This document shows, in pieces, positions 5,406 to 19,390 of a DNA stretch of 64,000 bases (positions are counted from its first letter, which is position 1; each line of letters starts with the position of its first letter). The notes under the pieces are model-generated. The model was given only the letters and a program-made list of their open reading frames with translations, did no database searches and was not told where the DNA came from. This DNA comes from Candidatus Atabeyarchaeum deiterrae. GTDB taxonomy: Archaea; Asgardarchaeota; Atabeyarchaeia; Atabeyarchaeales; Atabeyarchaeaceae. The DNA lies in assembly GCA_037310415.1 (NCBI GenBank), contig CP147780.1, positions 2,208,001 through 2,272,000 of the forward strand, written 5' to 3'. The position numbers were made by a program, and so were the translations under genes.

Positions 5406-6347
5406 GTGGAGAGTGTGACGTTGCCTGAGGACAAACATCCCAGAGACGCGAAAGAAGTGAAGGAACGGGCCAAGCCAGTAAGTATGTGGGGGCTGGCTTG
5501 GAGAAGGTTCAAGAGAAACAAGATAGCACTAGCTGGTCTCTTTATAATTGGGTATATCGCGTTCATGGGGATCTTCGCTGAATTCATAGCGCCATATGGG
5601 GCGAACGATACAAGTGCTTTTTACGAGGGCATGGCTAAGAGCCCTCCGACATGGGCCCATCCGTTTGGAACGGATATTATTGGGCGAGACCTCTTTAGTG
5701 AAATTGTTTTTGGTGCAAGGGCCGCTCTACTAGTCGGATTCGGCGCGGCGGGTATCGCCATTGGTATAGCCATTTTAGTTGGAGTCGTGGCTGGATACTA
5801 TGGTAGATACATCGATGAGATACTGATGCGATTCACCGAGATCTTCTTGGTCTTACCTTTCCTGCTTGTGATCCTAGTCCTGATGCAGGTTTCCGAGAAG
5901 TTTTTCATGGGCAGGCTGGTTGGACTTGGCGTCGTCATCCTCATAATAGGTGTTCTCTCATGGGCGGGCAATGCGAGGCTTATCAGGGGCGAGGTTATGA
6001 GGGTGAGAGAACTTGAGTTCATCACTGCAGCGAAGTGCCTTGGAGCAAATGGAAGACGAATACTCTTCAAACATATCTTTCCAAACATACTTTACTTGGT
6101 TTTAGTGTTGACGACGTTGCAGATAGCTGGAGCCATATTGGTCGAGGCTGCAGTGAGTTTCCTCGGCTTCGGAGATCCCAATGCAACAACGTGGGGACAA
6201 ATACTTTCAACTGCTGACTTGTACATATCTAATGGACTTTGGTGGATGCTGATTTTCCCAGGCATATTCATTACCTTGCTGGTGCTTGGTTTCAACCTGC
6301 TTGGGAACGGTCTGAGAGACGCATTCGATCCTAGACTAAGGGAGTAA
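5406..6347 (+). CDS. dppC: Peptide ABC transporter permease
   Basis: WRRFKRNK, HPFGTDIIGRD, EFITAAKCLGA, GLRDAFDPR motifs. Confidence 0.95.
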   Translation: MESVTLPEDKHPRDAKEVKERAKPVSMWGLAWRRFKRNKIALAGLFIIGYIAFMGIFAEFIAPYGANDTSAFYEGMAKSPPTWAHPFGTDIIGRDLFSEIVFGARAALLVGFGAAGIAIGIAILVGVVAGYYGRYIDEILMRFTEIFLVLPFLLVILVLMQVSEKFFMGRLVGLGVVILIIGVLSWAGNARLIRGEVMRVRELEFITAAKCLGANGRRILFKHIFPNILYLVLVLTTLQIAGAILVEAAVSFLGFGDPNATTWGQILSTADLYISNGLWWMLIFPGIFITLLVLGFNLLGNGLRDAFDPRLRE

Positions 6348-6396
6348 ACAATAGAGAATCCTGCACACTACTGACTCATGAGGTGTAAGTAGCATC

Positions 6397-7383
6397 ATGT
6401 TACTTAGCGTTGAAAATCTCAAGACATACTTCTACACCTGGGCTGGCGTCGTCAAAGCTGTCGACGGCGTTTCCTTCAAACTCAATGAGCGCGAGACCTT
6501 GGGGTTTGTGGGAGAATCTGGATCAGGAAAGACTGTGACGGCGCTCTCAGTAATGAAGATAATCCCTCGACCTGGTAAAATCGTTGAAGGGAAGATCTTC
6601 TTGAGAGGCGTCAACTTGGTTGAGAAGACTGAGAAGTATATGCAGAGTATCAGGGGACGCGAAATAGGATACGTTTTCCAAGATCCGTCTACCTCTCTCA
6701 ACCCAGTCTTCTCGATTGCGGCCCAACTCGTAGAGGTAATCATGAGGCATCAGAACATAACCAAGAGAGAGGCACTCGAACAAGCAATCGGGTTGCTGAA
6801 ACTGGTTGAAATCCCCGACCCAGAGAAAAGGATATGGAACTACCCACATCAACTCAGCGGCGGAATGAAGCAGAGAGTTGCAGTCGCCCGCGCACTTTCA
6901 TGTAACCCGAGTCTCCTCTTTGCTGATGAACCAACGACCGCGCTTGATGTCACAATTCAGGCGCAGATCCTGGACCTTATCAGGAGATTGCAGGAGCGGC
7001 TTGGTATGTCCATGGTGCTCATCACCCATGATATGGGTGTGGTCGCTGAGACGACAAAGAATATTATAGTTCTGTATGCTGGCAGAATCTGTGAAGCATC
7101 TGACACGATGTCTATCTTCAAGCAACCTATGCATCCTTATACGGAGGCTTTGCTGACGGCAGTACCTCACCTCGGTCTGAAGCAGCACAAACTCGAAATG
7201 ATACCTGGCTCTATTCCCAACCTGATAGACCCGCCCAAGGGTTGCCGATTCCACCCAAGGTGTAAGTATGCGGTGCGCAAATGCATGCAGGAGCTTCCAG
7301 ACGCGCTGCAAGTAGAACCTAATCATTACTCTGCATGTTTCCGAATTCAAGATGGCGAGATAACTTTGAAATCAATTCTGTGA
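6397..7383 (+). CDS. dppD: Peptide ABC transporter ATP-binding protein
   Basis: GESGSGKT, LSGGMKQR, DEPTTALD, HPYT, GCRFHPRC. Confidence 0.95.
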   Translation: MLLSVENLKTYFYTWAGVVKAVDGVSFKLNERETLGFVGESGSGKTVTALSVMKIIPRPGKIVEGKIFLRGVNLVEKTEKYMQSIRGREIGYVFQDPSTSLNPVFSIAAQLVEVIMRHQNITKREALEQAIGLLKLVEIPDPEKRIWNYPHQLSGGMKQRVAVARALSCNPSLLFADEPTTALDVTIQAQILDLIRRLQERLGMSMVLITHDMGVVAETTKNIIVLYAGRICEASDTMSIFKQPMHPYTEALLTAVPHLGLKQHKLEMIPGSIPNLIDPPKGCRFHPRCKYAVRKCMQELPDALQVEPNHYSACFRIQDGEITLKSIL

Positions 7384-12567: not shown

Positions 12568-14522
12568 TCACAGAAATCTTATTGCTTCTTCGAGTCTTTT
12601 CTTGAGCGTATCGTTCACTGTCTTTCCGTCGGCCTTTCCTCGTAATTGTTTCATCACGTCTCCCATTAGGGGGCTTAATGCTTGCATTTTCTTCTCCCTA
12701 ATTAGATCCATGTTCTTCTTGATCGTTTCCTCGACGATTTTGGCAAGTTCACCTGTAGAGACTTCTTTTATTCCGAGTATGCCGATTGCCTCGTCCACAG
12801 TCGCTGTCTGATCCTTCGCAAGGTACACCAGTATATCGGGTATTGCTTCCTTCGCAACTTTCTCTTCGTTAAGTTCCTTGAAAACTCGTTCCACTTTCTC
12901 GTCTCCTATGTTTTCCACAGTAATACCTTCCCTTTTCAAGTACTTCAACGTGTTCTGAAGCGTTGTGGCAACGAGTGCCGGCGAAACATTCCTCATCTTT
13001 TCCACAATACTCTCGAATAAATCCAAGTGATACGATCTGATCATTGCTTCAGCAAGTTCTTTACTGAGTTTGTATTGTTTGACGAATCGTTCGAACTTCT
13101 CCTCTGGTTTTTCGGGGAGAGCTTCCTTTATCCTGGTGATCCTTTCTGAGGTTATGGGAACGATCGAAGTGTCCGTCTCAGGATACATCCTTGCAGATCC
13201 TGGTTTTGGTCTGCTGTACTGCGTTGACCCGTCAGGCTTTGCCCCTCTTGTCTCTTCTGGGACACCACTAATCGCTTCCCTTGCTCGCTCAACTGCCGCA
13301 TCTAGGGCGTCTTTGGCTTTCTTAGGTTGATCGGCGACAAGTAGGATACAGTCATCTTTACCGGCTGCCAGTCGTTCTTTTACCTTCTTGACTTCTTCCT
13401 CTGTTATTCCATATGCTGGCAATTCATCAGTGTGGAAAATCCCTCCGACACCGCCCCAGAAAATTGCTCTCTCAGACATCTCTGTGCCGAGACGTCTTCC
13501 AGGTTGAACCTCTCTTCCGACGAGTCCAGCGAACTTCGGAAGCACTGTTGCTAGCACAACTCCATGTTGATCCAATGCTTTCCTCATGACTTTGCTCTTG
13601 GATTCTTTGAACAACTCTGACAGATCAGCAGATTTTCCTTTGACGTCATCCTTCTTGACGTTTCTGTTCTTAAGCTCATCTCTGATCCTGACTAGGCTAA
13701 GCTGTCTCTGAACCTCGAGTTCAACGACGCGTGCCAGAAGTCCAAGTTCCTGAACACCTTTGACTTCTATTAACGCTCCGTCCTTAGTTGACACGTTTAC
13801 GTCTTGTCTTATTGTTCCAAGTCCACGCTTCACTTTTCCAGTTGCTCGGAGGAGTTGACCGATCTTGTATGCCGCGCTTTCAGCTTCTTCTGGACTGTTT
13901 AGGTCGGGAGCCGTGGCTATTTCCACGAGAGGGATGCCTTGTCTGTCCAATCTGTATACGACTTCGTTCTGTGTCTCGCTCATCTTCCTAGCTGCATCTT
14001 CTTCGAGAGAGATGGTCTGAATCCGGACGCTTTTTCCATTTTCCAGCTCAATTTGACCACCCAAAGAAATCAAGGCCGTTCGCTGGAAGCCTGTGGTGTT
14101 TGAACCGTCGATGACAATCTTCCTCATGACATGAATCTCGTCGATGGGGCAGCTGTTCAAAAGCAAAGCCATTTCAATTGCTGTATCTAGGGCTTCCTGG
14201 TTCAATGGGTGAGGAGGCTCATCGTCTAGGCCAGCAACTCTCAACCATCTTAGAAGGAGATGCTGTCTGCCTCAACTAAACAGGTTCCCTCACCATACAT
14301 CTCATACATGAAAGTCTTCCCTTTGTGGAACTCGAAGAGAGCAGCTTGGTCGACCTGACCCAATTCACTCTGTGTTGGGCGAAGTCTTCGTTTGAACCTA
14401 ATACTGGGTTCATCTTCATGAATAACGATAGGGCAGCTGCAGAAAAGCTTGCCCTTGGTGTTGAGTTGCTGATGTAGTTCAAGCCCAACAACGGTTCCAG
14501 CTTTCGGATGATCAATATCCAT
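12568..14522 (-). CDS. gatE: Glu-tRNA(Gln) amidotransferase subunit E, split by a 41-nt intron (exon 1 14267-14522, exon 2 12568-14225; 637 aa spliced)
   Basis: GLELHQQL..KLFC..LRPTQSELG..CLVEA in ORF 14250-14537; DEPPHPLN, MRKIVIDGSNTTGFQRT, RMYPETD in ORF 12568-14244; removing 14226-14266 yields the conserved CLVEADDEPPHP. Confidence 0.93.
14226..14266 (-). other. 41-nt bulge-helix-bulge (tRNA-type) intron in gatE mRNA
   Basis: mRNA: GUUG-AGGC-AG^A-CAGCA...UGCUG-GCCU-AG^A-CGAU; 4-bp central helix, two 3-nt bulges, flanking helices; canonical cuts restore the frame. Confidence 0.85.
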
Positions 14523-14590
14523 ATGGATCCACCCCACACTTAAGTGTGCACATTGATTGGCTTAGTGATTCTTCTTACCAGTATTTCTCC

Positions 14591-16006
14591 TTACTCTTCT
14601 CTTTCGGCGGTTTCAGGAACCGACTCATCCGCGTGGGAGACTGCCGTGATCTCTCCGACGATGTTCGTTCTGATTAACTGGATTGTCTTCTCATGACTTT
14701 GTTCACTGCCAAGTAGCCACATTAATTTGACGAGTGCAGTTTCGGGCAACATGTCTTCCCCTGGTGTCACGCCCATGGCGAGTAGTTCGCGTCCTGTTCT
14801 ATAGACGCTCATATTAATGCGTCCCGAGATGCATTGACTGGTCATAACGACGATAATGTCGTCTTCAACCGCTCGCTTTATGGACCGGTATGTTCCTTCT
14901 GGAACGTGTCCAAGACCAGTTCCTTCCAACACGATGCCATGGTAACTCTTGTCGACCAACGCATCAATCAGTTCGCCCGCACTCCCAGGATACGTCTTGA
15001 CGAGACCAACCTTATCGTCGAATTTTGCCTGAACGTGGAGTTCCCTCTTTGCATCGCGCCTGGTATACTCGTCAACTAGCATTTTCACGTTGCCATCCTG
15101 AACTCGCGCTGTTGGTTTCGCGTTGATTGATCTGAAGGCATCTCGCCTGCTAGTGTGCATCTTCCTTACCTTCGTCCCCCTATGGCAAAGACTGTAGTTG
15201 TCTCCCATCTCCCCGTGCATGCACACGACGACCTCAGCAAAAGGGCCGCTTCCTGCAGAAACAACTGCGTTGATGAGGTTCATTGCAGCATCAGAAGATG
15301 GGCGGTCCGACGATCTTTGCGATCCCACAAGTACCACGGGGACTGGAAGTCCTTGAAGTGCAAAACTGAGAGCCGCAGCCGTGTAGTGCATCGTATCAGT
15401 CCCGTGAGCAACGACAACCCCGTCCAATCCGCCCTCTATAATGCGTTTGCCAATCGAGTCTGCGATCATAGACCATTTGTCAGATGTCATATTCTCACTG
15501 AGAATATTGCAGAGGATCTCTGCCCTAACGTTCGCAGTGTCCCCAAGCTCTGGAACCACATCGTACAGGTCTTGAGCTGAAAGTGCTGGGCTGACTGCTC
15601 CAGTTTTGTAGTCAACCTTGCTAGCGATGGTGCCTCCAGTGCTTAGGAAACTTACCGTGGGCAGACCTTTGACAACACGTCTCGGGGCTGCTATTGTGGC
15701 ACCTTGTTGCGTCCCCGCTTCTACGCTTCCCTTCTTCAAGATTGATATGATGATGTCCTGTTTCACGTCAATCCCGATATTGTAACCGCTTTTCTGTTTG
15801 ACAACAATGTGAAAATCATCGGTTGACACGACTGGTCGAGGCATCACAACGCCCTCGAAGACCGAGCCACTCTTTGTGCTGATCTTGACAAGATCGCCGA
15901 CGCTGGCACCTGCTGCCTTCAAAGCCTTTAAGGCTTCTCCGCGATAACCAAAATCAGAAGCTCCGCCACTGCCCTTCTCGGTGGAAGGATTTGCCTGCCG
16001 TTTCAA
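14591..16006 (-). CDS. gatD: Glu-tRNA(Gln) amidotransferase subunit D
   Basis: K.KSGYNIGI N-domain, STGGTIASKVDY, HGTDTM, GSQRSSDRPSSD, KMHTSRRDAF. Confidence 0.96.
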   Translation of the reverse strand: MKRQANPSTEKGSGGASDFGYRGEALKALKAAGASVGDLVKISTKSGSVFEGVVMPRPVVSTDDFHIVVKQKSGYNIGIDVKQDIIISILKKGSVEAGTQQGATIAAPRRVVKGLPTVSFLSTGGTIASKVDYKTGAVSPALSAQDLYDVVPELGDTANVRAEILCNILSENMTSDKWSMIADSIGKRIIEGGLDGVVVAHGTDTMHYTAAALSFALQGLPVPVVLVGSQRSSDRPSSDAAMNLINAVVSAGSGPFAEVVVCMHGEMGDNYSLCHRGTKVRKMHTSRRDAFRSINAKPTARVQDGNVKMLVDEYTRRDAKRELHVQAKFDDKVGLVKTYPGSAGELIDALVDKSYHGIVLEGTGLGHVPEGTYRSIKRAVEDDIIVVMTSQCISGRINMSVYRTGRELLAMGVTPGEDMLPETALVKLMWLLGSEQSHEKTIQLIRTNIVGEITAVSHADESVPETAEREE

Positions 16007-16117: not shown

Positions 16118-17485
16118 TCATGGATAACGCCTCGTCAAATATCTCGGGAAAGGTATGGACGCCCTAATGTGGTCAAGTTTGCACATCCATCTTATCAGTC
16201 TATCACACCCGAGTCCGAATCCACTGTGAGGAACAGTGCCATACCTTCTCAAATCTATGTACCATTCGTAGTCCTCGGGCTTCAGATGCTCCTCCTTTAT
16301 TCTGCTTATGAGAGCATCCTTGTCGTGTATTCTTTGACCGCCTCCAATTATCTCACCGTAGCCCTCGGGAGCCAGACAGTCACCGCATCTAACAACGCTT
16401 GGATCGCTCGGCTTCGGATAGTGATAGAATGGTTTTAGGCTTCTTGGGTATTCTAAAACAAAAATGGGCTTAGACAGATCCTCCGTCAATTTAAGCTCCT
16501 CATCAGCACCCATGTCATCACCGTACTCTATCGTGACGCCCTTCTTCTTTATGCGATCGATCGCCTCTCCATATCCTATCCGCTCGAAAGGTGTCTTGAC
16601 TGAAGCAAGATCCTCAGGGTCTCTTCCAAGCTTCTCAAGCCGCTTGCCGTATTTTTCAGCAATAGACTGACAGACGTGGGAGACAAGTTTCTCCTCGACT
16701 TGTACTATGTCATCTAGATCCATCCAAGCGGCTTCCGCCTCCGCATGCCAGTACTCTGTTAGATGCCTTGGAGTCTTCGACTTCTCCGCTCTGAAACTTG
16801 GTGCGACACAGTAGACCTTTTCGAGGCTCTGCATCATCGCTTCAAGGTAAAACTGAGAACTTTGTGTCAGATAAGCCACTTCGCCGAAGTAGTCCATCTT
16901 GAAGAGAGTAGCACCTCCTTCAACTGAAGCCGATATTATCATGGGCGGATGAACCTCAATCCACCCATCTTGTCTAAACCATTCTCTAATGGCTTCGAAG
17001 GTGTCTGCTCTTATCTTCATGATCAGTGTTTGCTTCTCCCCTCTTAGATGGAGGTGTCTTTTGTCGAAAAGAACATCTATACCTGCATCTATTGGAAGTG
17101 GCCACTCTTCCGCAAGCCCTTCTATATGGAGATCGCTAAGTTCCACTTCATGTCCACCAGGGGCTCGCTTGTCGCTTCTGACGGTGCCTTTCACGATGAT
17201 AGATGATTCACGTGTGACCTTCTGCACATTTTCAAAGACTTGTTTCGAAACCTTGTCCTTGTGAACACTAATTTGGATAATGCCAGTTCCATCACGAAGA
17301 TCAATAAACAACAGATTCCCGTGAACCCGTTTGTTGTAAACCCAACCCGCCAGAACTACCTCTTTCGACTCAAGGCTCTGGCCGCTCTCAAGTACCTTGC
17401 TCACGGGAACCCGACCTCTAAGTTGCCCAAGCACTGTCTCACTTCCTTTCAATTCTAATCGCAATCGATCAACCATAACAATCAT
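16118..17485 (-). CDS. asnS: Asparagine--tRNA ligase
   Basis: OB fold (FIDLRDGTG), EGGATLF, LTQSSQFYLE, FRAEKSKTPRHLTEYW, GEIIGGGQR, YGTVPHSGFGLG. Confidence 0.92.
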   Translation of the reverse strand: MIVMVDRLRLELKGSETVLGQLRGRVPVSKVLESGQSLESKEVVLAGWVYNKRVHGNLLFIDLRDGTGIIQISVHKDKVSKQVFENVQKVTRESSIIVKGTVRSDKRAPGGHEVELSDLHIEGLAEEWPLPIDAGIDVLFDKRHLHLRGEKQTLIMKIRADTFEAIREWFRQDGWIEVHPPMIISASVEGGATLFKMDYFGEVAYLTQSSQFYLEAMMQSLEKVYCVAPSFRAEKSKTPRHLTEYWHAEAEAAWMDLDDIVQVEEKLVSHVCQSIAEKYGKRLEKLGRDPEDLASVKTPFERIGYGEAIDRIKKKGVTIEYGDDMGADEELKLTEDLSKPIFVLEYPRSLKPFYHYPKPSDPSVVRCGDCLAPEGYGEIIGGGQRIHDKDALISRIKEEHLKPEDYEWYIDLRRYGTVPHSGFGLGCDRLIRWMCKLDHIRASIPFPRYLTRRYP

Positions 17486-18404: not shown

Positions 18405-19390
18405 ATGCTTCAAACGATGTGGTTCCAGGAACGAAACCCTATCCGACGCACCAGCATCGGGGAGATTACATATGCTGGCTTCGCAATGATATGTGGGAAT
18501 CGGACTTTGAGAAAAGGGATCTCTGTGATTCGCATTCAGAAGGCATCTAAAGAAAATGAGTTCTTGCGAGTCCCGCAATCTTTTGTCAAAGTCTTAGAAA
18601 CGTTTAAGCTCTGGAACAGCGATCAGTACGAATTAGCGGAACGGTTCGGTGGGAGGCCCCTCAATAAGTGCGCGCTGAAAACCTAGCCTTTGCGATCGTC
18701 TACATGTTGCATGAGGCTTCGTGCAACAGGCAGTTCATTCCAGTCGCCGATTTCAAGGACGTGCTCGGCGAATCGGAGGTCTCCACGCTGATAAAGATGT
18801 TACGTAGCGTCCACATAATCATCACTGAGAAGGAGTTTTCCGACGTCGTTGCACGCGCCAAAGCCGCATTGCACCTAACAGAAAACGGAATCGGTGCATA
18901 TGCTGACGATTTTCCTTCCAGCGACGGTGACGACATCATTGCTCTGAACCCTGCGCTGGTAGACGAGATGAAGAGAAACTATCCTGGACAACTCGGCTAT
19001 CAAATGGTAAGACGATTCGTGAGTGGCTTCCTAGGCTCACTAGAACTTGCTGCAAACGTTGGTTCACTAGACGACTTGGTCAAAGAGTTGTCCACGAAGT
19101 ACCAAGATAAATTCAAAATTGCTGTTGCCAAGGACATGGTAGTCGCCCGTGCATGTAACCTGTCGGAAGTGGAGAGGGCCTCGCTCGCAGCAGCAAAGTT
19201 GGCGTCTCCCCCCAGATTTCACAGTATTGTCTCAATCCTTTTGAGTAGAGCCCAGAAGTACGCCGAACAGATCTCAGTAGAAATCGCTCGGGAAGATATA
19301 GAAGACTACTTGTTCAACGGTCCCAAAGGAGGGGCTACTAATAAAAGCCCGACTACACCGAGTTATCTAGAGAGATCTGGGACCTTGTGA
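18405..19390 (+). CDS. Hypothetical protein, probably one gene split by a 38-nt intron (exons 18405-18640 and 18679-19390; 315 aa)
   Basis: Two overlapping out-of-frame ORFs; GAGGTG SD upstream of the first; removing 18641-18678 fuses them (DQYELAE/NLAFAIVY). Confidence 0.6.
18641..18678 (+). other. Putative 38-nt BHB-type intron
   Basis: UU-AGCG-GA^A-CG...CG-CGCU-GA^A-AA; perfect 4-bp central helix, two GAA bulges; length mod 3 equals the frame offset. Confidence 0.6.

What the first reader, a model, noticed from the sequence alone, without database searches (positions are those of the whole stretch)
14226..14266. Canonical bulge-helix-bulge intron inside the mRNA of the essential gene gatE
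Seen: gatE is broken into a 95-aa and a 558-aa ORF exactly at the conserved CLVEAD(E/D)EPPHP motif by 41 extra nt containing an in-frame stop. The mRNA reads GUUG AGGC AGA CAGCAUCUC..loop..GAGUUGCUG GCCU AGA CGAU: outer helix GUUG/CGAU, perfect 4-bp helix AGGC/GCCU, two 3-nt AGA bulges, inner helix CAGCA/UGCUG. Cutting after the second nt of each bulge removes 14226-14266 and gives GAG GCA G|AC GAU GAG (EADDE), a 637-aa GatE. Established: archaeal splicing endonuclease EndA cuts BHB motifs this way and RtcB ligates; the classic mRNA example is crenarchaeal cbf5; GatDE is the archaeal route to Gln-tRNA. Inference: Gln-tRNA synthesis here depends on tRNA-type mRNA splicing, which could couple tRNA maturation capacity to aminoacylation. 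Automated annotation would call this a pseudogene.
Basis: partly seen in the sequence, partly recalled or inferred. Interest (0 to 1): 0.95.

Follow-up and report, generated by a model that had tools for sequence, protein, structure and literature searches.

The report
tRNA-type intron inside gatE mRNA
The only gatE gene of this wetland Asgard archaeon is interrupted by a 41-base intron of the kind normally found in tRNAs, so making Gln-tRNA very probably depends on cutting and re-joining the messenger RNA; the same kind of intron sits at almost the same spot in 13 other Asgard genomes.

Summary
On the minus strand, gatE is split into a 95-aa and a 558-aa ORF by 41 nt (14266..14226). These fold as a full bulge-helix-bulge motif. 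Cutting after the second base of each bulge gives a 642-codon frame (637 aa from the ATG) whose junction matches solved GatE structures without a gap.

- **Genomic, not an artefact.** DNA contigs from three other studies carry the 41 nt with no indel.
- **Needed and under selection.** The complete 2.76-Mb genome has one gatE, no GatB match and one GluRS/GlnRS-class gene. Both exons are under equal purifying selection.
- **Machinery present.** The genome encodes two EndA subunits of the crenarchaeal heterotetramer type and RtcB.
- **Conserved.** All three genomes of its class carry the intron at the same site, with compensatory changes. Eleven genomes of three other Asgard families carry 30-51-nt BHB introns 5 nt downstream, with exon-intron covariation.
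- **Not alone.** cbf5 in this genome has the classic BHB intron. glyA, mtnP and a radical-SAM gene are split likewise.

I found no report of BHB introns in gatE or in Asgard protein genes. This scan had noted the intron only on this genome. RNA-level proof is missing, and the proposed regulatory coupling is speculation. Verdict: real, a new member of a known kind, high interest.

The parts
14267..14537 (-). gatE exon 1 (GTG at 14537, or ATG at 14522; ends with the first base G of the split Asp codon)
   Evidence: ORF. Pfam GatB_N positions 1-30. Aligns to residues 2-83 of GatE 2d6f_C. pN 0.14-0.15 against relatives while synonymous sites are saturated.
14226..14266 (-). 41-nt bulge-helix-bulge intron with an in-frame UAA at 14252-14250; 41 mod 3 = 2
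   Evidence: Sequence. Present without indel in DNA contigs of four studies. Same-site introns of 41 and 35 nt in the two other genomes of the class.
14221..14276 (-). Complete hBHBh' motif: outer helix 14273-76/14221-24, central helix 14269-72/14228-31, bulges 14266-68 and 14225-27, inner helix 14261-65/14232-36 (+14257-59/14238-40)
   Evidence: Read directly. The minimum-energy fold recovers the central and inner helices and the 5' bulge. Pair table and slid controls.
12568..14225 (-). gatE exon 2 (starts with AC of the split Asp codon; stop codon at 12568-12570)
   Evidence: Pfam GatB_N 45-276, GAD and GatB_Yqey. E = 2.4e-159 to 1zq1_C residues 90-629.
14591..16006 (-). gatD, partner subunit, directly upstream in the same orientation
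   Evidence: Pfam GatD_N, Asparaginase and Asparaginase_C.
16118..17485 (-). Class II Asp/Asn/Lys-type aminoacyl-tRNA synthetase gene at the head of the same gene string
   Evidence: Pfam tRNA-synt_2 and tRNA_anti-codon.

Best explanation
A genuine archaeal BHB (tRNA-type) intron lies inside the coding region of the single gatE gene. The gatE pre-mRNA folds locally into helix-bulge-helix-bulge-helix. The heterotetramer-type splicing endonuclease EndA cuts after the second base of each 3-nt bulge. RtcB joins the exons (GAGGCAG|ACGAUGAG) and probably circularises the 41-nt intron. Only the spliced mRNA encodes full-length GatE (637-642 aa); unspliced mRNA ends at a UAA after 95 codons.

Shown: the motif, the exact restoration of frame and homology, genomic presence, single copy, selection on both exons, conservation with covariation, and presence of the enzymes.

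Inferred: the cleavage and ligation themselves.
For: 1. Exact hBHBh' geometry, and canonical cuts give a gap-free match to solved GatE.
2. The same cut rule applied to cbf5 of this genome (C1:395677-395717) splits G|AT of the catalytic Asp codon. That is the published crenarchaeal cbf5 boundary (PMC2738675).
3. The three genomes that make up the whole GTDB class carry the intron at the same base. Lengths are 41, 41 and 35 nt. The outer-helix pair changes G-U to C-G, and other pairs change G-C to G-U.
4. Eleven genomes of three other families carry introns of 30, 31, 35 and 51 nt cut between the Glu and Thr codons of DETPPF. Within family f7, lengths 30, 31 and 35 differ in phase, yet the BHB cuts always restore DETPPF. 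The synonymous exon change GAC to GAT is matched by the intron change CGUC to CAUC.
5. Both exons show pN 0.14-0.15 while pS is saturated at 0.74-0.82.
6. One gatE, no GatB match and one GluRS/GlnRS-class gene. GatDE is therefore the only evident route to Gln-tRNA (established archaeal pathway).
7. Two EndA genes, the better one most similar to the catalytic subunits of the A. pernix and P. aerophilum heterotetramers, plus RtcB.
8. DNA contigs of three independent studies bridge the insert with no indel.
9. The lineage is reported to carry introns in 92-95% of its tRNA genes, many at non-canonical sites (PMC11291895).
Against: - There is no RNA evidence: no junction read, no circular intron, no peptide.
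- The fold is not thermodynamically exceptional (z = -0.64).
- The outer helix is short, with two G-U pairs, and is absent or weak in the other families.
- BHB-like motifs that join two open, coding-like frames are common by chance. My strict genome-wide scan gave 39 hits against 37-51 in shifted-cut controls. The motif alone would therefore prove nothing; the case rests on homology and comparison.
Confidence: 0.9

Rival explanations
1. Translational bypassing (ribosome hopping, as in phage T4 gene 60). The ribosome takes off at the Asp codon GAC before the insert, skips 41 nt, lands on the GAC at its end, and makes the same protein without any RNA cutting.
For: In this genome both junctions read AGAC, so take-off and landing codons are both GAC. 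A stop codon and a hairpin follow the take-off site. In G001 the pair is GAC/GAU, both Asp codons.
Against: - In G002 the landing triplet is AAC.
- In all eleven introns at the downstream site, the take-off codon GAA faces CAA, UAA or CAC.
- Bypassing does not need two 3-nt bulges spaced by a covarying 4-bp helix, which is conserved in 50 of 52 cells.
- cbf5 in the same genome has the classic spliced-intron site.
Confidence: 0.03
2. A split gene: the 95-aa N-terminal piece and a roughly 558-aa piece (TTG start at 14244 inside the insert) are translated separately and assemble into GatE without a covalent link.
For: Both ORFs exist, and the second has a possible TTG start. Split genes are known in reduced archaea such as Nanoarchaeum (my knowledge).
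Against: - It gives no reason for BHB geometry, covariation, or frame-exact excision across introns of six lengths.
- The break falls inside one conserved motif, not between domains.
- The 30-nt in-frame versions leave only about 5 codons between the stop and exon 2.
Confidence: 0.03
3. An inactivated gene (pseudogene) or an assembly or sequencing artefact.
For: Taken at face value the frame is broken by a stop and a frameshift. Gene callers would report two fragments.
Against: - The insert is identical in contigs of three further studies.
- It is conserved in three species whose synonymous sites are saturated, while both exons keep pN at about 0.15 and show no other defect.
- It is the only gatE, with no GatB and no GlnRS candidate.
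Confidence: 0.02

Closest known systems
BHB intron in cbf5 pre-mRNA of Crenarchaeota (Watanabe et al. 2002; Yokobori et al. 2009, PMC2738675)
   Same: - A short BHB intron (tens of nt) lies inside a protein-coding region.
- It sits after the first letter of an Asp codon in a highly conserved motif.
- It is cut by a heterotetramer-type EndA.
- It shows gains and losses among relatives.
- This genome's own cbf5 carries such an intron at the published site.
   Different: - The gene is different (gatE, a tRNA-dependent amidotransferase).
- The phylum is different (Asgard rather than Crenarchaeota).
- It occurs at two sites 5 nt apart in distant classes.
- It is one of several interrupted protein genes in the genome.
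- Splicing is not yet shown experimentally here.
BHB intron in the 5' UTR of HVO_1309 mRNA, Haloferax volcanii (PMC7714728)
   Same: An mRNA substrate of the archaeal splicing endonuclease, confirmed there in vivo and in vitro.
   Different: That intron lies in an untranslated leader, and its removal modulates expression. Here the intron breaks the reading frame, so splicing is obligatory for any full-length protein.
Non-canonical and multiple tRNA introns of Atabeyarchaeia and Freyarchaeia (PMC11291895; bioRxiv 10.64898/2026.10.13.758758)
   Same: The same lineages, the same motif geometry and the same presumed enzymes. Repeated independent gains at shared or nearby positions are reported for tRNA genes and seen here for gatE.
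   Different: Those papers, as far as I could search them, describe tRNA introns only. Here the host is an mRNA, and the constraint is the reading frame rather than a cloverleaf.
IRE1/RtcB unconventional splicing of HAC1/XBP1 mRNA in eukaryotes (reviewed in PMC13149111)
   Same: Spliceosome-independent excision of a short intron from an mRNA by an endonuclease that reads RNA structure, followed in animals by RtcB ligation; it changes the frame.
   Different: The endonuclease (IRE1) and the motif (twin stem-loops) are unrelated, and that splicing is regulated by stress. No regulation is shown here.

Membership tests
Archaeal bulge-helix-bulge (BHB) intron | Two 3-nt bulges on opposite strands separated by a 4-bp helix | tested here: met
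   AGGC/GCCU between AGA and AGA. The central helix forms canonical pairs in 50 of 52 cells across 13 genomes.
Archaeal bulge-helix-bulge (BHB) intron | Flanking helices h (exon-exon) and h' (intron-intron) for the strict hBHBh' form | tested here: met
   In this genome the outer helix is 4 bp (two G-U) and the inner helix 5+3 bp. In the class the outer helix pairs in 11 of 12 cells. In the other families it is weak, so those are the relaxed HBh' form.
Archaeal bulge-helix-bulge (BHB) intron | Cleavage after the second bulge base on each strand yields a functional product | tested here: met
   The result is a 642-codon frame with a gap-free junction against 2d6f_C and 1zq1_C. The same rule restores the frame in the 13 other genomes despite lengths of 30, 31, 35, 41 and 51 nt.
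Archaeal bulge-helix-bulge (BHB) intron | Base pairs maintained by compensatory change | tested here: met
   - Outer pair G-U to C-G within the class.
- Central pair C-G to U-A between families, with one side being an exon wobble base.
- Inner helices differ entirely in sequence yet pair in 77 of 78 cells.
Archaeal bulge-helix-bulge (BHB) intron | Host encodes a splicing endonuclease able to cut outside the tRNA context, and an RtcB ligase | tested here: met
   Two genes with tRNA_int_endo_N and tRNA_int_endo domains. The best PDB matches are the catalytic chains of heterotetrameric EndA (3p1z_B, 3ajv_B, 2zyz_B). RtcB matches at E = 5e-175.
Archaeal bulge-helix-bulge (BHB) intron | Excision and exon ligation observed in RNA (junction reads, circular intron) | not testable with these tools
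   No RNA run holds the stretch. Wetland metatranscriptomes exist for the most likely source lineage (PMC11291895) but could not be reached.
GatE (archaeal Glu-tRNA(Gln) amidotransferase subunit E) | GatB/GatE catalytic domain with GAD insertion and YqeY-like tail, about 620-640 aa, paired with GatD | tested here: met
   Pfam GatB_N, GAD and GatB_Yqey. E = 2.4e-159 and 3.7e-147 to solved GatE. gatD lies 53 nt upstream.

The most novel reading that the evidence does not exclude
In the two tRNA-intron-rich Asgard classes, EndA/RtcB splicing is a general layer of mRNA expression, not a single oddity. At least five protein genes of this genome are interrupted by BHB introns placed inside their most conserved motifs: gatE, cbf5, glyA, mtnP and a radical-SAM gene. 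Unverified leads exist for valS, rio2, a RuBisCO-like gene and others. gatE was invaded independently, 5 nt apart, in distant classes and has kept the intron while silent sites saturated. This would make supply of translation components depend on tRNA-splicing capacity, and it would give a prokaryotic relative of eukaryotes routinely spliced protein genes.
Probability: 0.5. Interest if true: 0.9.

Novelty: new member of a known kind. Interest (0 to 1): 0.8.

Why it matters
In the papers I could search, BHB introns in archaeal mRNAs were known from one coding gene (crenarchaeal cbf5) and one 5' UTR (PMC7714728).

- **A second essential gene.** This adds a second coding example, and it lies in Asgard archaea, the closest prokaryotic relatives of eukaryotes.
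- **Old and maintained.** The intron is conserved across a whole class and recurs in three more families, so such introns can be ancient and retained.
- **Dependence on splicing.** Gln-tRNA formation in these organisms appears to hinge on the tRNA-splicing enzymes.
- **Annotation errors.** Gene callers will report truncated or "pseudo" versions of core genes in these much-studied genomes, which distorts completeness and metabolic inferences.
- **Directly testable.** Metatranscriptomes of the source wetland already exist.

Tried and rejected
- **RNA evidence.** The look-up of sequencing runs listed no RNA holder. Reads were laid on DNA contigs. Nothing can be said about expression.
- **Known RNA families.** Rfam and ARAGORN found nothing in the window.
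- **Fold energy.** It is not distinctive.
- **Genome-wide counts of mRNA introns.** BHB geometry plus joined open frames, then added codon-usage scores and stricter helices, never exceeded shifted-cut controls: 923 vs 868-1021; 6278 vs 6171-6675; 39 vs 37-51. Such scans cannot count introns, and a BHB-like motif with ORF joining is weak evidence without homology. Only gatE and the radical-SAM intron stood out in the strict list.
- **Copies elsewhere.** The intron has no similar copy in the genome, so it is not a repeated element at the sequence level.
- **Wider archaeal survey.** Eighty further archaeal gatE loci (Bathyarchaeia, Thermoplasmata, Methanomicrobiales and others) showed no interruption at this site; five were cut by contig ends.
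- **Extra gatE matches in Lokiarchaeia-like and other genomes.** These are paralogues or contig breaks, not introns at this site.
- **Taxon names.** The names of the other intron-bearing families could not be obtained.
- **Second candidate intron in the window (18641-18678).** Neither half has a Pfam match, so it is left unverified.

Full report
**What is there.** On the minus strand the window carries a class II Asp/Asn-type synthetase gene (16118-17485), gatD (14591-16006) and gatE. gatE is broken into ORFs of 95 aa (14250..14537) and 558 aa (12568..14244). Between the homologous parts lie 41 nt. The RNA reads GUUG AGGC AGA CAGCA...UGCUG GCCU AGA CGAU (14276..14221). This is a 4-bp outer helix, a perfect 4-bp central helix, two 3-nt bulges on opposite strands, and an inner helix of 5 pairs extended by 3 more after a U-U mismatch. 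That is the full hBHBh' topology.

In a pre-tRNA with an intron at 37/38, each bulge is cut after its second base (established geometry; my knowledge). The same cuts here remove 14266..14226. They leave one open frame of 642 codons, 637 from the ATG, reading CLVEADDEPPHP. Exon 1 aligns to residues 2-83 of M. thermautotrophicus GatE (2d6f_C). Exon 2 starts at residue 85, and the re-formed Asp codon G|AC is residue 84.

**Artefact and pseudogene are excluded.**
- Contigs from three studies other than the likely source bridge the insert with no indel (X5 with 0 differences; X6 and X7 as strain variants). One variant changes the intron's UAA to UAG in the loop.
- The genome is a single 2,756,679-bp contig with one gatE, no GatB match and one GluRS/GlnRS-class gene. 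GatDE is therefore the only evident route to Gln-tRNA(Gln) (established archaeal pathway).
- Against its two relatives, both exons show non-synonymous differences of 0.14-0.15 per site, while synonymous sites are saturated at 0.74-0.82. Exon 1 is thus selected as coding sequence just like exon 2.

**The organism.** Its GTDB class and order hold only three genomes. The runs that hold its DNA are wetland, sediment and soil metagenomes. Genome sizes elsewhere in the phylum (single contigs of 6.0, 4.4 and 1.4 Mb) fit Asgard archaea. The best fit is Atabeyarchaeia, described from wetland soil with two complete genomes of about 2.8 Mb and with introns in 92-95% of tRNA genes (PMC11291895). This naming is an inference, not a direct match.

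**Comparative evidence.**
- *Same class.* Both other genomes of the class have an intron at the identical base, of 41 nt (G001) and 35 nt (G002), with the same AGGC and AGA. One outer pair changes G-U to C-G, others change G-C to G-U, and the loops are unrelated in sequence.
- *Phylum scan.* A scan of 332 genomes of the phylum flagged short exon-2 frames in three more families. Fetching them showed BHB introns cut between the Glu and Thr codons of DETPPF, 5 nt downstream of the site in this genome. They occur in f7 (4 of 4 genomes; 31, 30, 35 and 30 nt), f18 (6 of 6; 30 nt) and one genome of f22 (51 nt).
- *Frame.* In every case the canonical cuts restore the frame and the motif. Lengths differ in phase even within f7, and the in-frame introns carry stop codons.
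- *Covariation.* The exon strand of the central helix is GACG or GAUG, a synonymous Asp-codon change, and the intron strand follows with CGUC or CAUC/CAUU. The inner helices share no sequence, yet their first six pairs are canonical in 77 of 78 cells. The central helix pairs in 50 of 52 cells. With the partner slid by 1-3 nt the figures are 11-20 of 52 and 13-34 of 78.
- *Absence elsewhere.* Twenty-three other Asgard loci and about 75 informative loci from other archaea have no insert.
- *Independent origin.* In a GatE tree the Atabeya-like class sits in a different, well-supported half from f7, f18 and f22, among intron-free families. At least two gains, or a gain with sliding and many losses, are therefore needed. 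A recent preprint reports the heaviest tRNA-intron loads in exactly two Asgard classes, with repeated gains at shared positions (10.64898/2026.10.13.758758).

**Machinery and precedent in the same genome.**
- There are two EndA genes, each with N-terminal and catalytic domains. The stronger one matches best the catalytic chains of the A. pernix and P. aerophilum heterotetramers, the broad-specificity type. RtcB is present.
- Following a lead from another note, I found that cbf5 of this genome carries a 41-nt hBHBh' intron (C1:395677-395717). [quoted passage not shown]
- glyA, an MTAP-like phosphorylase gene and a radical-SAM gene are each split so that the two halves match consecutive Pfam profile positions (SHMT 4-55 then 52-366; PNP_UDP_1 2-173 then 176-232).
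- The radical-SAM gene has a clean BHB. In glyA the canonical cuts give YAEGWPGERVYAG, which I read from the sequence printed.

**Rivals.**
- *Ribosomal bypassing* fits this genome superficially (take-off and landing GAC). It fails in G002 (landing triplet AAC) and in all eleven downstream-site introns (GAA against CAA, UAA or CAC), and it does not explain the bulge-helix-bulge covariation.
- *Separate translation of two pieces* explains none of the structure.
- The evidence against a pseudogene or artefact is given above.

**Limits.** No RNA data could be reached, so cleavage and ligation are inferred. The fold energy is ordinary. My genome-wide scans for BHB motifs that join coding frames never beat shifted-cut controls. 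This shows that the motif alone is cheap, and that the count of mRNA introns needs a homology-based census. The proposed coupling between tRNA maturation and aminoacylation is untested.

**Novelty.** Searches of the held literature found only cbf5 and one haloarchaeal 5' UTR as BHB introns in mRNA. They found tRNA introns only for Atabeyarchaeia and Freyarchaeia, and nothing on gatE. Within this scan the gatE intron had been noted only on this same genome. I class it as a new member of a known kind. Interest is raised by the Asgard host, the deep conservation, the recurrence at a neighbouring site, and the company of other interrupted protein genes.

Noticed in passing
own genome G000:C1:395677-395717 (outside the window; locus L129): cbf5 carries a 41-nt hBHBh' intron (GGGA CUCU AGA ... 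[quoted passage not shown] Excision gives a 343-codon frame reading GGTL|DPRVTG. This is the same boundary as published for crenarchaeal cbf5.
   Followed up: yes
own genome: glyA near C1:652.7 kb (L125), MTAP-like gene near 938.2 kb (L124), radical-SAM gene intron 919007-919059 minus strand (L126): Three further protein genes are split so that the halves match consecutive Pfam profile positions. The radical-SAM intron is a clean BHB (GCCC aua ... GGGC aag). The glyA cuts restore YAEGWPGERVYAG.
   Followed up: partly
related loci L019, L020, L114, L130 (family f7); L024, L026, L115-L118 (f18); L119 (f22): gatE of eleven Asgard genomes in three other families has 30-51-nt BHB introns cut between the Glu and Thr codons of DETPPF, 5 nt downstream of this genome's site. 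The exon-exon helix is weak or absent (relaxed HBh' form), and the in-frame versions carry UAG or UGA stops.
   Followed up: yes
window 18641-18678 (+): Another first-stage note proposes a 38-nt BHB intron joining ORFs 18405-18686 and 18668-19390. Neither half has a Pfam match, so I could not verify it by homology.
   Followed up: partly
own genome, whole: There is no GatB-like match and only one GluRS/GlnRS-class catalytic domain gene (C1:180093-181007). GatDE therefore looks like the only tRNA-dependent amidotransferase, and Asn-tRNA presumably comes from a direct AsnRS.
   Followed up: partly
window 14250 and 14206 (strain variants in run X6): A soil-metagenome strain has T>C at 14250, which changes the intron-loop stop UAA to UAG, and T>A at 14206, a synonymous Pro codon change. 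Both helices and both bulges are unchanged.
   Followed up: yes
G099:C137:5955-7530 (another Asgard family, f23): gatE matches in two adjacent pieces (query residues 2-297 and 322-547) separated by only about 16 nt. This may be another interruption at a different gatE site, or a frameshift.
   Followed up: no
own genome, leads from other notes: valS near C1:457.15 kb, rio2 near 771.2 kb, RuBisCO-like gene near 2663.5 kb, SRP RNA, 23S rRNA, multi-intron tRNAs: Further BHB-intron candidates in mRNAs and structured RNAs. For valS my scan found a 31-nt candidate restoring ...GIDRNG|LPIEV with one mismatch in the central helix. The RuBisCO-like gene's upstream part matches RuBisCO_large. The rest are unchecked.
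   Followed up: partly
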